Shown here: in pieces, positions 12,783-13,446 of the stretch
Layout: every line of letters starts with the position of its first letter
How positions within the stretch are numbered: position 1 is the stretch's first letter
From: Escherichia phage EF202P1
Length of the DNA: 64,000 bases
Reading direction: 5' to 3' (one strand)
Sequence record: OP172796.1
Made by a program: the position numbers and the translations under genes
Notes under the pieces: model-generated
The model's input: the letters and a program-made list of their open reading frames with translations, nothing else
The model's database searches: none
Told to the model about the DNA's origin: nothing

Positions 12783-12864
12783 CGGGGCGTATCTCAGCGG
12801 TCTTCTAAACCGCCGTTAACCGAGTAAGTGGAGTATGCGGGTTCGAGTCCTGCCGCCTCGACCA
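12783..12864 (+). tRNA. atypical tRNA-like gene (anticodon-like loop TCT, Arg-like); no canonical D-arm
   Basis: Acceptor CGGGGCG/CGCCTCG, clean hairpin GCGGT-CTTCTAA-ACCGC, T-arm GCGGG-TTCGAGT-CCTGC, A73, CCA; only 5 nt between acceptor and anticodon-like hairpin. Confidence 0.4.
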
Positions 12865-12878
12865 ATTTTGGAGAAATC

Positions 12879-13226
12879 ATGAAAACTTGTATTAGGTGCA
12901 AACTTAGCAAGGATGAAAATGATTTCTACATGAAAGATGGTAGGAGAACTCATTCATACTGTAAAAAGTGTGTTAATGAGCAAACCATAGAAAGACAAAG
13001 AGCACTTAAACTTTCAGCTATTGAGTACAAAGGTGGGGTTTGTCATGATTGTGGTAAAAGGTATCATCCAGCAGTGTATGACTTCCATCATTTGAATCCT
13101 TCAGAGAAAGATTTTAACATTGGTCATAGAAAAAGTCTTAAGTTCTCTCAGGAGCTAAAGAACGAACTTGACAAATGTGTTTTGCTATGTTCAAATTGCC
13201 ATAGGGTAAGACATGCAAAGTATTAG
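12879..13226 (+). CDS. HNH endonuclease (homing-endonuclease-like)
   Basis: Cys-rich protein with paired CxxC zinc knuckles and HH...N...CxxCH (DFHHLNP...CSNCHRVRH); GGAG RBS; start taken at ATG 12879 to avoid the tRNA overlap. Confidence 0.7.
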   Translation: MKTCIRCKLSKDENDFYMKDGRRTHSYCKKCVNEQTIERQRALKLSAIEYKGGVCHDCGKRYHPAVYDFHHLNPSEKDFNIGHRKSLKFSQELKNELDKCVLLCSNCHRVRHAKY

Positions 13227-13363
13227 TTAGCAGATTGCTTAGACGACCTTATCGGGTCTCCGTGTAAGGAGGTGGTCTGTATCTCATGTTTTCCAGAACA
13301 TGTAAATAATCTGAGAAGGGGCTTTACAGTGTTGCGAAAATACGGTAAGCTTCGAATTATAGT

Positions 13364-13446
13364 GTGGGACGATGTTAAGACTCTAAGGCATGAGCAACGG
13401 CCTCCAAAACCGTTTCAAAGGGGTTCAACTCCTCCGTCCCATGCCA
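13364..13446 (+). tRNA. atypical tRNA-like gene (anticodon undetermined, 9-nt loop)
   Basis: Acceptor GTGGGAC/GTCCCAT, T-loop TTCAACT, CCA; AACGG-CCTCCAAAA-CCGTT hairpin; no convincing D-arm. Confidence 0.35.

What the first reader, a model, noticed from the sequence alone, without database searches (positions are those of the whole stretch)
12783..13446. Two tRNA-like genes with canonical acceptor and T-arms but no recognisable D-arm
The genes at 12783-12864 and 13364-13446 have 7-bp acceptor stems, TTCGAGT/TTCAACT T-loops and encoded CCA. In the first, a clean anticodon-like hairpin (GCGGT-CTTCTAA-ACCGC) follows the acceptor after only 5 nt, with a ~23-nt region before the T-arm. The second has a 9-nt loop (AACGG-CCTCCAAAA-CCGTT). 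They could be D-armless tRNAs, tRNA-derived regulatory RNAs, pseudogenes, or my mis-parse. The HNH endonuclease gene sits between them, which may reflect disruption or mobility.
Basis: seen in the sequence. Interest (0 to 1): 0.5.

Follow-up and report, generated by a model that had tools for sequence, protein, structure and literature searches.

The report
Two non-standard phage tRNA genes
A Felix-O1-like phage carries two real, conserved tRNA genes that standard finders miss: an arginine tRNA whose D-stem is rewired so that it clamps the anticodon arm (a fold shared by hundreds of phages), and a tryptophan tRNA with a long extra linker and an oversized anticodon loop.

Summary
Both genes exist at the stated coordinates, in the tRNA cluster of a Felixounavirus. 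ARAGORN misses both. Rfam's tRNA model just passes on gene 1 (31.7 bits, cut-off 29).

Gene 1 (12783-12864) has anticodon UCU and no D hairpin. It belongs to a phage-only family: 262 cultured phage records, including Felix O1, phi92 and 121Q, and 47 distinct sequences aligned here. Acceptor, anticodon and T stems all covary. A further 3-bp helix pairs nucleotides 11-13 with the three bases just 5' of an invariant UAAnUGGAGUAU. The anticodon arm is therefore nested inside a D-stem-like helix, and a D-loop-like segment (A14, R15, G18, G19, A20, Y48 equivalents) sits where the variable loop should be. The anticodon is always Arg (UCU, once CCU). AGA makes up 41% of this phage's Arg codons, and a sister genus has a normal tRNA-Arg(UCU) in the same slot.

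Its real oddities are a 9-nt acceptor-to-D linker, an 8/4 acceptor/T arrangement and a 9-nt anticodon loop (CCA, Trp). It is confined to Ounavirinae.

The HNH gene is an optional insert that disrupts neither gene. Function as tRNAs is inferred, not shown.

The parts
12783..12864 (+). Gene 1: non-cloverleaf tRNA-Arg(UCU)-type gene, 82 nt with encoded CCA
   Evidence: Rfam tRNA 31.7 bits with the D arm deleted and a 20-nt insertion. Family model R1 gives 101 bits. 47 distinct homologues aligned.
12783..12789 (+). Gene 1 acceptor stem, 5' strand; pairs with 12854-12860. Discriminator A at 12861, CCA at 12862-12864.
   Evidence: All 7 pairs covary; 99.4% of cells are paired.
12793..12795 (+). Gene 1 D'-helix 5' strand (CUC), preceded by invariant U8-A9-U10 (12790-12792); pairs with 12822-12824 (GAG)
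   Evidence: Pair 12:41 is UA 34 / AU 8 / GC 5. Pair 13:40 is CG 39 / GC 5 / UA 3. No unpaired cells. Pair 11:42 is invariant C-G. RNAalifold does not predict this helix.
12797..12813 (+). Gene 1 anticodon arm GCGGU-CUUCUAA-ACCGC; anticodon UCU at 12804-12806
   Evidence: All 5 stem pairs covary. The loop is CUUCUAA or CUUCUAC in 46 of 47 sequences and UUCCUAA (CCU) in one.
12814..12821 (+). Gene 1 3'-side bulge CGUUAACC between the anticodon stem and the D' 3' strand; CGUUAA is invariant
   Evidence: Alignment A1.
12825..12836 (+). Gene 1 D-loop-like segment U-AAGUGGA-GUAU in the variable-loop position (equivalents of A14, R15, G18, G19, A20 and Y48)
   Evidence: Invariant except at two positions in 47 sequences. 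The assignment to tertiary-core residues is inference from the canonical tRNA pattern.
12837..12853 (+). Gene 1 T arm GCGGG-UUCGAGU-CCUGC
   Evidence: 4 of 5 pairs covary; 99.1% of cells are paired.
12870..13226 (+). Free-standing HNH homing endonuclease ORF (118 aa) between the two RNA genes
   Evidence: phrog_2255 HNH endonuclease, E 2.3e-40; no Pfam hit. Absent in adrianh-type relatives.
13364..13446 (+). Gene 2: tRNA-Trp(CCA)-type gene, 83 nt with encoded CCA
   Evidence: ARAGORN -mt calls Trp(cca). tRNA-Sec model 23 bits. Alignment A2 and pair counts.
13364..13371 (+). Gene 2 acceptor 5' strand (8 bp with 13435-13442); discriminator G at 13443, CCA at 13444-13446
   Evidence: 100% paired. 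Pairs 1 and 2 covary; the 8th pair G-C is invariant, so 8/4 against 7/5 is not resolved.
13372..13380 (+). Gene 2 expanded linker AUGUUAAGA between the acceptor and D stems (2 nt in normal tRNAs)
   Evidence: Invariant from Felixounavirus to Pectobacterium phage Wc4-1, which carries 2 further nt here.
13381..13394 (+). Gene 2 D arm: CUC - UAAGGCAU - GAG
   Evidence: Middle pair is U-A in 6 and A-U in 4 sequences, with one C-G to U-G change. Also present in the MFE fold.
13396..13414 (+). Gene 2 anticodon arm AACGG-CCUCCAAAA-CCGUU (9-nt loop, or a 7-nt loop with a C31.A39 mismatch); anticodon CCA at 13404-13406
   Evidence: 4 of 5 stem pairs covary (AACGG/CCGUU, GUAAG/CUUAC, GUAGG/CCUAC, GACGG/CCGUU). 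The 31.39 position is C.A or C.C in all sequences.
13420..13434 (+). Gene 2 T arm GGGG-UUCAACU-CCUC (4 bp)
   Evidence: The outer pair changes G-C to U-A in Moogle-type phages.

Best explanation
Both genes are functional phage tRNAs. They fill the two gaps in this phage's tRNA set: the AGA decoder and Trp.

Gene 1 is a tRNA-Arg(UCU) with a rewired core. After U8-A9-U10, nucleotides 11-13 pair with three bases that lie 3' of the anticodon arm, not with a strand 5' of it. The anticodon arm is therefore nested in a D-stem-like helix, giving one long interrupted arm and a three-way rather than four-way junction. The strand leaving that helix carries a D-loop look-alike (A-A-n-U-G-G-A ... U). This could make the usual elbow contacts with the T loop (G18-psi55, G19-C56), the U8-A14 and R15-Y48 pairs, and could present A20, the main E. 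coli ArgRS identity base, together with C35, U36 and A/G73. I infer that it is processed by RNase P, charged by host ArgRS and used at AGA codons.

Gene 2 is a tRNA-Trp(CCA) carrying the E. coli TrpRS identity set (G73, A1-U72 or G1-U72, CCA). It has a normal D arm displaced by a 9-nt linker, 12 bp of acceptor plus T helix split 8/4, and an anticodon stem whose last pair is always mismatched.

Shown here: the sequences, the family membership, the base-pairing by covariation, the anticodon restriction, the synteny and the codon usage. Inferred: aminoacylation, the identity of the amino acid, ribosomal use and the 3D mimicry.
For: Gene 1
- 47 distinct homologues. 94.8% of cells are paired against 64.2% in shuffles; covariation score 0.788 against 0.195, with 0 of 500 shuffles reaching it. 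Slid registers give 33-47% paired.
- The D' helix varies as CUC/GAG, CGC/GCG, CAC/GUG, CAGC/GCUG, CAUC/GAUG, CGG/CCG, CUUA/UAAG and CCC/GGG. These sequences came from a search pattern that left those bases free.
- With the anticodon loop left free in the search, only UCU and one CCU were found. Locus L052 carries a UCU and a CCU version of the scaffold.
- T loop UUCRA and the G53-C61 pair are conserved; position 73 is A or G in 45 of 47 sequences.
- The window's 25 ARAGORN tRNAs include only Arg(ACG) and no Trp. AGA is 40.9% of Arg codons, 16.7 per 1000.
- Mooglevirus Sf16 and Michonne (between tRNA-Ile and the HNH gene or gene 2) and Pectobacterium phage Wc4-1 (straight after tRNA-Ile, no tag RNA) have a canonical tRNA-Arg(UCU) in the equivalent position.
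- Only 1 of 73 family loci also holds a canonical tRNA-Arg(UCU).
- The family spans unrelated phage genera, with 262 records. It is absent from 5,426 E. coli genomes.

Gene 2
- 99.5% of cells are paired and 8 pairs show double changes, against 0 in any slid register.
- It is conserved across Felixounavirus, Mooglevirus, Suspvirus and a Pectobacterium phage.
- In VpaE1_ev78 the same slot holds a canonical tRNA-Trp plus a second HNH gene.
Against: - There are no expression, processing or aminoacylation data.
- ARAGORN rejects both genes. Rfam's tRNA model passes gene 1 only marginally and fails gene 2.
- RNAalifold does not predict the 3-bp D' helix. Its first pair is invariant and the possible fourth pair is unpaired in 38 of 47 sequences.
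- The D-loop mimicry rests on invariant bases, so covariation cannot test it.
- E. coli EF-Tu, ArgRS and modification enzymes are not known to accept a non-cloverleaf tRNA; a 2024 paper states that all known bacterial tRNAs are canonical (PMC11551756).
- For gene 2, 8/4 against 7/5 with an A49.C65 mismatch is unresolved. A 9-nt anticodon loop and a 9-nt linker could impair decoding. Three relatives carry a U.U mismatch in the T stem.
- The gene 2 alignment has only 10 distinct sequences in 3-4 clades.
Confidence: 0.7

Rival explanations
1. Anti-defence tRNA or decoy. The unusual folds exist mainly to escape or soak up host tRNA-cleaving defence nucleases, or tRNA-modifying toxins, that recognise the normal D-arm/elbow or hinge. 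The RNAs may still decode (a cleavage-resistant replacement) or may only bind the nuclease (a decoy).
For: Phage tRNAs that resist abortive-infection tRNases are documented for PARIS, OLD and others (10.64898/2026.07.10.737580; PMC10264068, title and abstract listed). The gene 1 scaffold has spread across unrelated phage genera at 83-90% identity and is often the only tRNA in a locus, which suggests an advantage beyond codon supply. It replaced a canonical tRNA-Arg(UCU) in Felixounavirus.
Against: The anticodon loop CUUCUAA is, from my recollection of the E. coli argU sequence (no tool result), the same as the host tRNA's, so loop-specific nucleases would still see it. No nuclease specific for tRNA-Arg(UCU) or tRNA-Trp was identified here. 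A pure decoy would not need an invariant Arg anticodon, an A/G73, an encoded CCA and an A20-like base.
Confidence: 0.2
2. Decaying tRNA pseudogenes. The two loci are remnants of tRNA-Arg and tRNA-Trp genes damaged by insertions or deletions, perhaps linked to HNH endonuclease activity, and no longer function.
For: Standard finders fail on both. An HNH gene lies between them. Some relatives replaced gene 2 with a canonical tRNA-Trp. Some carry a T-stem mismatch in gene 2.
Against: Every stem shows compensatory changes, while the unpaired core is invariant across phages that share little else. The same odd architecture is kept in 262 phage records for gene 1 and 245 for gene 2. HNH-free relatives have identical genes.
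Confidence: 0.03
3. Gene 1 is the tRNA-like partner of the adjacent tmRNA-like tag-template RNA. The transcript from the 12550-12578 promoter carries a tag reading frame and ends in gene 1, so the pair might act as a reversed or split tmRNA in ribosome rescue rather than in ordinary decoding.
For: A tmRNA-like 10-codon tag frame (ANDNVFLAVA, 12628-12657) lies about 125 nt upstream on the same strand, behind a strong promoter. In some other phages this element is followed about 100-130 nt after the tag by a tRNA or tRNA-like gene. Gene 1 in this window has G3-U70 and A73.
Against: G3-U70 is not conserved in the family (GC 23, AU 7, GU 7, CG 6, UA 4 at pair 3:76). Gene 1 has a complete anticodon arm with an invariant Arg anticodon. 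The family mostly occurs without the tag RNA, for example ECGD1 with its own promoter. In Mooglevirus a canonical tRNA-Arg follows the same tag RNA. Most tag-RNA loci have no tRNA nearby.
Confidence: 0.05
4. Gene 2 is a recoding tRNA. Its altered hinge and loosened anticodon stem let tRNA-Trp(CCA) read UGA as well as UGG, giving programmed readthrough of some phage or host stops.
For: In tRNA-Trp(CCA), changes at hinge positions 9 and 24 (A9C, Hirsh G24A) and unpairing of the top anticodon-stem pair increase UGA reading, including in E. coli (PMC13092985). Gene 2 has a 9-nt insertion exactly at the 8-9 hinge and a conserved 31.39 mismatch.
Against: The unpaired pair here is at the bottom (31.39), not the top (27.43) of the stem. 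UGA ends 8 of 40 long ORFs in the window, so it is in ordinary use as a stop. I did not look for conserved in-frame UGA. Some relatives swap gene 2 for a canonical tRNA-Trp.
Confidence: 0.1

Closest known systems
Canonical bacterial and phage tRNA-Arg(UCU) (E. coli argU; the Mooglevirus Sf16 tRNA-Arg at the same locus)
   Same: Same anticodon loop CUUCUAA in Sf16. 7-bp acceptor, 5-bp anticodon stem, 5-bp T stem with UUCGARU loop, A/G73, encoded CCA, and a G-G-A motif like G18-G19-A20. The same genomic slot as the canonical gene in sister genera. That argU has the same loop and a GCAGG-UUCGAAU-CCUGC T arm is from my recollection of its sequence, not a tool result.
   Different: There is no D hairpin between the acceptor and anticodon stems. 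The D-stem 3' strand and the D-loop-like segment lie 3' of the anticodon arm. There is a 23-nt 'variable' region, and the junction is three-way.
Metazoan mitochondrial D-arm-lacking tRNAs, e.g. mt-tRNA-Ser(AGY/UCU) (PMC7609411, PMC4013460)
   Same: The acceptor is joined to the anticodon stem by a short connector instead of a D hairpin, and the T arm is kept. Pairing of connector bases to lengthen the anticodon arm has been proposed for these tRNAs (my recollection of the Steinberg models, not checked here).
   Different: The mitochondrial ones are shortened, AT-rich, lack the G18-G19 elbow contacts, and work with adapted mitochondrial factors. The phage family is longer than a normal tRNA (79 nt plus CCA), keeps a D-loop-like GG segment and a canonical T loop, and must work with unadapted bacterial factors.
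(8/4) tRNAs and allo-tRNAs, including phage (8/4) tRNA-Ser and tRNA-His and irregular 'E-loop' tRNAs (Mukai et al., PMC5389517; review PMC7609411)
   Same: Gene 2 can be drawn with an 8-bp acceptor and a 4-bp T stem (12 bp in all). It has an extra loop between the acceptor and D stems, as the review describes for some irregular 8/4 tRNAs. Phage 8/4 tRNAs are known. The tRNA-Sec model is the best Rfam match for gene 2.
   Different: Gene 2 has no long variable arm (5 nt), a 3-bp rather than 5-6-bp D stem, and a Trp anticodon with TrpRS identity bases rather than SerRS or HisRS features. The 8th acceptor pair is invariant, so 8/4 is not proven.
tmRNA tRNA-like domain
   Same: Acceptor plus T arm without a D hairpin. 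Gene 1 lies next to a tmRNA-like tag template, and the window copy has G3-U70 and A73.
   Different: Gene 1 has a complete anticodon arm with a conserved Arg anticodon, and G3-U70 is not conserved in the family. ARAGORN and the Rfam tmRNA models do not call a tmRNA here.

Membership tests
Canonical cloverleaf tRNA (Rfam RF00005 / ARAGORN definition): gene 1 | Score at or above the curated threshold of the general tRNA model | tested here: met
   31.7 bits against a gathering score of 29, but only by deleting the D arm and inserting 20 nt. ARAGORN gives no call even at the 80% threshold.
Canonical cloverleaf tRNA: gene 1 | D hairpin (3-4 bp stem plus loop) between positions 9 and 26, giving a four-way junction | tested here: not met
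   Only 7 nt (UAUCUCA) separate the acceptor and anticodon stems. Bases 11-13 pair with bases 3' of the anticodon arm.
Canonical cloverleaf tRNA: gene 1 | 7-bp acceptor, 5-bp anticodon stem with a 7-nt loop (U33, purine 37), 5-bp T stem with a UUCRANY loop, discriminator plus CCA | tested here: met
   All are present and covary in 47 sequences.
Arginine-accepting tRNA (E. coli ArgRS identity set: A20, C35, U/G36, A/G73; from established knowledge) | C35, U36 and A/G73 | tested here: met
   Anticodon is UCU in 46 of 47 sequences and CCU in 1. Position 73 is A or G in 45 of 47.
Arginine-accepting tRNA | A20 in the D loop, and actual charging by ArgRS | not testable with these tools
   An invariant A follows the invariant GG (12830-12832) in the D-loop-like segment. 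Whether it occupies the A20 site, and whether ArgRS charges the RNA, needs biochemistry.
Mitochondrial-type D-armless tRNA | Loss of the D arm with loss of D-loop/T-loop elbow contacts; reduced size | tested here: not met
   The RNA is 82 nt and keeps the invariant GG segment and a canonical T loop. ARAGORN mitochondrial mode does not call gene 1.
tmRNA tRNA-like domain | G3-U70 alanine identity pair and no anticodon arm | tested here: not met
   Pair 3:76 is GC 23, AU 7, GU 7, CG 6, UA 4. The anticodon arm is present in all sequences.
Canonical cloverleaf tRNA: gene 2 | Threshold score in the general tRNA models | tested here: not met
   No RF00005 hit at E up to 10; the best match is tRNA-Sec at 23 bits against a cut-off of 47. 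ARAGORN calls it only in mitochondrial mode.
Canonical cloverleaf tRNA: gene 2 | Four arms including a D hairpin | tested here: met
   D stem of 3 bp with a compensatory U-A to A-U change and an 8-nt loop containing GG.
Canonical cloverleaf tRNA: gene 2 | 2-nt linker (U8, N9) and a 7-nt anticodon loop closed by a 31-39 pair | tested here: not met
   The linker is 9 nt after an 8-bp acceptor. Position 31.39 is C.A or C.C in all 10 distinct sequences.
(8/4) tRNA / allo-tRNA (Mukai et al. 2017) | 12-bp acceptor branch split 8+4 | tested here: inconclusive
   G8 pairs with C (13371 with 13435) and the T stem is 4 bp, with its outer pair covarying. The 8th pair never varies, so 7/5 with an A.C mismatch is not excluded.
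(8/4) tRNA / allo-tRNA | Long variable arm and extended D or anticodon stems, as in tRNA-Sec | tested here: not met
   The variable loop is 5 nt (UCAAA) and the D stem is 3 bp.
Tryptophan-accepting tRNA (E. coli TrpRS identity: CCA anticodon, G73, A1-U72; from established knowledge) | CCA anticodon, G73, and 1-72 as A-U | tested here: met
   CCA and G73 are in all sequences. Pair 1-72 is A-U in 6, G-U in 3 and G-C in 1. Charging itself was not testable.

The most novel reading that the evidence does not exclude
The gene 1 family is a natural, translationally active non-cloverleaf tRNA that works with unmodified bacterial ArgRS, EF-Tu and ribosomes. It has spread among phages because the rewired core makes it invisible to host tRNA-targeting defences (or to a host regulatory or quality-control step) while still decoding AGA. 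This would be the first three-way-junction elongator tRNA in a bacterial system, and a ready-made orthogonal scaffold.
Probability: 0.3. Interest if true: 0.9.

Novelty: new variant of a known kind. Interest (0 to 1): 0.75.

Why it matters
The cloverleaf is treated as universal outside mitochondria. A 2024 paper that tried to force E. coli to use a D-armless tRNA opens by saying all known bacterial tRNAs are canonical (PMC11551756).

Here a non-cloverleaf arginine tRNA-like gene is conserved, with full covariation, in hundreds of phages of E. coli, Salmonella and Klebsiella. These include classics such as Felix O1, phi92 and 121Q. In the database records it is unannotated or labelled tRNA-OTHER, tRNA-TERM or tRNA-Leu.

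If it is charged and used, several things follow:
- Bacterial ArgRS, EF-Tu, RNase P and the ribosome tolerate a rewired tRNA core.
- It offers a natural scaffold for orthogonal translation.
- It raises the question of why phages prefer it (defence evasion, modification independence, stability).
- Phage tRNA counts and codon-supply analyses are systematically short by the most-needed AGA decoder.

Gene 2 adds a phage tRNA-Trp with a hinge insertion at the very positions known to modulate UGA reading.

Tried and rejected
- **Ala identity / tmRNA-like domain for gene 1.** The window copy has G3-U70 and A73. Rejected because the pair is not conserved and an Arg anticodon arm is always present.
- **Pairing of CUC with the second GAG (in UGGAGUAU).** Rejected. 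Only the first GAG covaries, and slid registers lose the pairing.
- **A small hairpin inside the 23-nt region (YCG...UGG).** No covariation between the variable positions.
- **Gene 2 D-stem alternatives (AUGUU/GGCAU, AUGU/ACAU).** Dropped in favour of CUC/GAG, which alone shows a compensatory change and aligns in Wc4-1.
- **Other anticodons on the gene 1 scaffold.** None found when the loop was left free.
- **Host origin.** No match in 5,426 E. coli genomes. Only 3-4 true hits in 185,579 species genomes, all on short contigs or MAG contigs.
- **Pfam on the HNH ORF** gave nothing; PHROGs did.
- **Two IMG/VR scans were wasted** on mis-specified patterns.
- **Literature searches for a described D-armless or non-canonical phage tRNA, or an enterobacterial-phage tmRNA,** found nothing. 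The library lacks most subscription journals, so prior description cannot be excluded.
- **A tRNA-like domain for the tag-template RNA** was looked for and not settled.
- **tRNAscan-SE** was not available.
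Full report
**Where the window comes from.** The region is more than 98% identical to Felixounavirus genomes (Escherichia phage SP22, Alf5 and others; Felix O1 itself is 93.6% identical). It lies in the phage's tRNA cluster. ARAGORN finds 25 tRNAs between 11178 and 16480, nearly all with an encoded CCA. They cover 19 amino acids, with Arg only as ACG and no Trp.

**Checking the observation.** Both flagged genes read as described.

- Gene 1 (12783-12864): CGGGGCG | UAUCUCA | GCGGU-CUUCUAA-ACCGC | 23 nt | GCGGG-UUCGAGU-CCUGC | CGCCUCG | A | CCA. 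The connector is 7 nt, not 5.
- Gene 2 (13364-13446): has the stated acceptor, the UUCAACT T loop, G73, CCA, and a 5-bp stem with a 9-nt loop.
- ARAGORN does not call either gene at default, 95% or 90% thresholds. At 80% it gives a nonsensical 4-base anticodon call over gene 2. In mitochondrial mode it calls gene 2 Trp(cca).
- Rfam's tRNA model passes gene 1 at 31.7 bits (cut-off 29), by deleting the D arm and inserting 20 nt in the variable region. Gene 2's best match is the tRNA-Sec model at 23 bits.

**Gene 1 belongs to a large family.**

- BLAST found the 82-nt gene in 262 cultured-phage records. Besides Felixounavirus these include phi92-like Justusliebigvirus, 121Q/PBECO4 Asteriusvirus, Klebsiella Mydovirus, Kuravirus, and a weaker partial match in a Streptomyces phage.
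- In those records it is usually unannotated. Otherwise it is labelled 'tRNA', 'tRNA-OTHER', 'tRNA-TERM' or 'tRNA-Leu'.
- Pattern scans of IMG/VR added dozens of uncultivated contigs.
- It is absent from 5,426 complete E. coli genomes.
- A scan of one genome for each of 185,579 species gave only 3-4 true members, all on short contigs or MAG contigs.
- A covariance model built from the family scores the window copy at 101 bits and no other window tRNA above 35.

**Gene 1 structure.**

- In 47 distinct sequences (alignment A1) the acceptor (7 bp), anticodon (5 bp) and T (5 bp) stems have essentially different sequences but stay paired. Overall 94.8% of cells are paired against 64.2% in shuffles; the covariation score is 0.788 against 0.195 (0 of 500 shuffles); slid registers give 33-47%.
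- The unpaired core is nearly invariant: U8-A9-U10-C11, CGUUAA, G-UAA-n-Y-GGAGUAU.
- A scan that left five bases of the 23-nt region free returned variants in which bases 12-13 change together with the bases just 5' of UAA: CUC/GAG, CGC/GCG, CAC/GUG, CAGC/GCUG, CAUC/GAUG, CGG/CCG, CUUA/UAAG, and CCC/GGG in a MAG contig.
- Counted on A1, pair 12:41 is UA 34 / AU 8 / GC 5 and pair 13:40 is CG 39 / GC 5 / UA 3, with no unpaired cell. Pair 11:42 is invariant C-G. A fourth pair (14:39) forms in only 9 of 47 sequences.
- RNAalifold, which is driven by energy, does not predict this 3-bp helix. I give that as evidence against, but the counts are clear.
- The anticodon arm is therefore nested inside a D-stem-like helix, with one base on the 5' side and 7-8 bases (CGUUAANN) on the 3' side.

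**Gene 1 inferred 3D logic (inference from the canonical tRNA core, not tested).**

- The strand leaving the helix, U-A-A-n-U-G-G-A-G-U-A-U, matches the D-loop pattern A14-R15-N16-Y17-G18-G19-A20. It ends in a U directly before the T stem, where Y48 sits.
- U8, the T-loop U54-U55-C56-R57-A58 and the G53-C61 pair are conserved.
- The helix is 'flipped' relative to a normal D stem. Its 13-22 end abuts the anticodon stem, and its 10-25 end faces the elbow, where the D-loop-like strand emerges.
- This could give an L-shape from a three-way junction.

**Gene 1 function (inferred).**

- The anticodon is UCU in 46 of 47 sequences and CCU in one. It stayed Arg when the search left the loop free.
- One contig (L052) carries a CCU copy and a more divergent UCU copy of the scaffold.
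- Position 73 is A or G in 45 of 47 sequences, and an invariant A follows GG. These fit the E. coli ArgRS identity set (A20, C35, U/G36, A/G73; established knowledge).
- The phage uses AGA for 40.9% of its Arg codons (16.7 per 1000), yet has no other UCU tRNA.
- Sister groups (Mooglevirus Sf16 and Michonne, Pectobacterium phage Wc4-1, Kolesnikvirus Rouille) carry a canonical tRNA-Arg(UCU). In Sf16, Michonne and Wc4-1 it sits in the equivalent slot downstream of tRNA-Ile.
- Of 73 loci with the rewired gene, only one (L024) also has a canonical tRNA-Arg(UCU). Three other ARAGORN 'Arg' calls are over-long calls on copies of the rewired scaffold itself.
- In many metagenomic loci it is the only tRNA within reach.

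**Gene 2.**

- Homologues exist only in Ounavirinae: 245 records covering Felixounavirus, Mooglevirus and Suspvirus, plus a diverged copy in Pectobacterium phage Wc4-1.
- Ten distinct sequences (A2) support a cloverleaf.
  - The acceptor is 8 bp; pairs 1 and 2 covary.
  - The D stem is C-U-C/G-A-G, which becomes C-A-C/G-U-G in Mooglevirus. The D loop is UAAGGCAU.
  - The anticodon stem occurs as AACGG/CCGUU, GUAAG/CUUAC, GUAGG/CCUAC or GACGG/CCGUU.
  - The T stem is 4 bp, and its outer pair changes G-C to U-A.
  - 99.5% of cells are paired; 8 pairs show double changes against none in slid registers.
- The MFE fold finds the same D stem.
- The real anomalies are three:
  1. A 9-nt invariant linker, AUGUUAAGA, where U8-N9 should be.
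  2. An 8/4 split of the acceptor branch, or 7/5 with an A.C mismatch. This is unresolved because the 8th pair never varies.
  3. A 9-nt anticodon loop, equivalently a conserved C31.A39 (or C.C) mismatch around CUCCAAA.
- G73, A1-U72 (G-U in this window) and CCA match the TrpRS identity set (established knowledge).
- In VpaE1_ev78 the slot holds a canonical tRNA-Trp plus a second HNH gene. Kolesnikvirus has a canonical tRNA-Trp. This supports functional equivalence.

**The HNH gene.** ORF 12870-13226 matches phrog_2255, HNH endonuclease (E 2e-40), with no Pfam hit. About a third of the closest relatives lack it, with clean boundaries and both RNA genes intact. It is a mobile insert between the genes and does not disrupt either.

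**Comparison with what is known.**

- The 2020 review of non-canonical tRNAs does not mention phages.
- Mukai et al. describe 8/4 tRNA-Ser and tRNA-His in phages and irregular tRNAs; the 2020 review describes some of these as having an extra loop between the acceptor and D stems. These are the nearest precedent for gene 2.
- D-arm-lacking tRNAs are known from metazoan mitochondria. They are reduced molecules served by adapted factors.
- A 2024 NAR paper states that all known bacterial tRNAs are canonical.
- I found no description of the gene 1 architecture. The searchable library is incomplete.
- I class gene 1 as a new structural variant of tRNA, and gene 2 as a new member of the irregular/8-4 group.

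**Rival explanations.** Pseudogenes are excluded by covariation. A tmRNA-like partner role for gene 1 is unlikely: G3-U70 is not conserved, the anticodon arm is always present, and the family occurs without the tag RNA. An anti-defence advantage is compatible with, and may explain, the spread of the scaffold, but it was not tested. UGA reading by gene 2 is speculative.

**Things seen nearby.** Two further unannotated RNA elements lie in the cluster and are listed under Noticed in passing: a tmRNA-like tag template (12579-12782) and a circularly permuted tRNA-like gene (about 12076-12127).

Noticed in passing
window 12550-12782 (+): promoter 12550-12578; tag frame 12628-12657; stops 12658-12663: An unannotated tmRNA-like tag-template RNA lies between tRNA-Ile and gene 1. 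A strong TTGACA-17-TATAGT promoter (11 of 12 matches) is followed by a conserved AGUUUUCGU. Then comes a start-codon-less frame, GCA AAC GAC AAT GTT TTT CTG GCA GTA GCT TGA TAG, encoding ANDNVFLAVA** (compare E. coli ANDENYALAA). The stops sit in a helix-5-like hairpin, and a pseudoknot-like element and two hairpins follow.

The same element occurs in at least 120 IMG/VR contigs and in many unrelated cultured phages (Kuttervirus, Gamaleyavirus, Swiduovirus, Kolesnikvirus). It is also found, unannotated, in 291 of 5,426 E. coli genomes. The tags follow AN[DE]xx[FYV]L[AM][AV]A. Third-codon-position entropy is 1.36 bits, against 0.55 and 0.76 for positions 1 and 2.

The Rfam tmRNA models are sub-threshold, and ARAGORN's only tmRNA call in 124 loci is a spurious one (nonsense tag, borrowing the 3' end of tRNA-Met). 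I found no chargeable tRNA-like domain. The swi2-type RNAs end in a stem enclosing two hairpins with covarying kissing loops and no CCA. A 2014 tmRNA census lists only mycobacteriophages and Bacillus phage G..
   Followed up: partly
window about 12020-12300 (+); core at 12076-12127: A circularly permuted tRNA-like gene lies in the 460-nt unannotated gap between tRNA-Asp and tRNA-Lys. The T arm GAAGG-UUCGAUU-CCUUC and the acceptor 3' strand ACUCGGC-A (12076-12100) come first. Three nt later come the complementary acceptor 5' strand GUCGAGU, then UG and a D arm GUGU-AAUGGUA-GCAC (12104-12127).

The acceptor covaries: ACACGUU / GGCGUGU in Sf16, and ACCCUUC-G-CCA-AACA-GAAGGGU in Michonne, which has an encoded CCA. 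This is the gene order of two-piece (permuted) tmRNA genes. No anticodon arm or tag is evident.

A long-range 15-bp helix (12170-12185 with 12275-12290) also covaries. Erwinia phage Rouille has a related T arm in a non-permuted 175-nt acceptor+T+CCA RNA directly upstream of its tag-template RNA (L150:1194-1370)..
   Followed up: partly
L001 (Escherichia phage VpaE1_ev78) 2331-2820: In this close relative, gene 2 is replaced by a canonical 71-nt tRNA-Trp together with a second HNH endonuclease ORF. This suggests that homing-endonuclease cassettes exchange tRNA genes within the cluster.
   Followed up: partly
L078 (Escherichia phage St11Ph5) 475-546 and about 985-1205; L077 (Salmonella phage PhiSH19) about 458-523: Further irregular tRNA-like genes lie next to the tag-template RNA in other phages. 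One is a 72-nt 'tRNA-Ala(cgc)' whose best Rfam match is tRNA-Sec at 30 bits. Another is an acceptor plus T arm unit with a 31-nt middle and no anticodon arm. A third is a ~130-nt acceptor/T-arm RNA, and a fourth is a 66-nt mini tRNA-like with a U3.U70 mismatch.
   Followed up: no
L052 13332-13429: A more divergent member of the gene 1 scaffold: UAUGCCG connector, a G-C/C-G D' helix, and a 16-nt D-loop-like segment UAAUUGGAUAGAACAU, with anticodon UCU. It lies in the same tRNA cluster as a CCU copy. The family is therefore broader than the pattern searches captured.
   Followed up: no
window 13323-13351: A possible promoter for gene 2: TTTACA-17-TAAGCT, with TTGACA as the -35 in Mooglevirus Sf16. 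It is below the threshold of the promoter scan.
   Followed up: no
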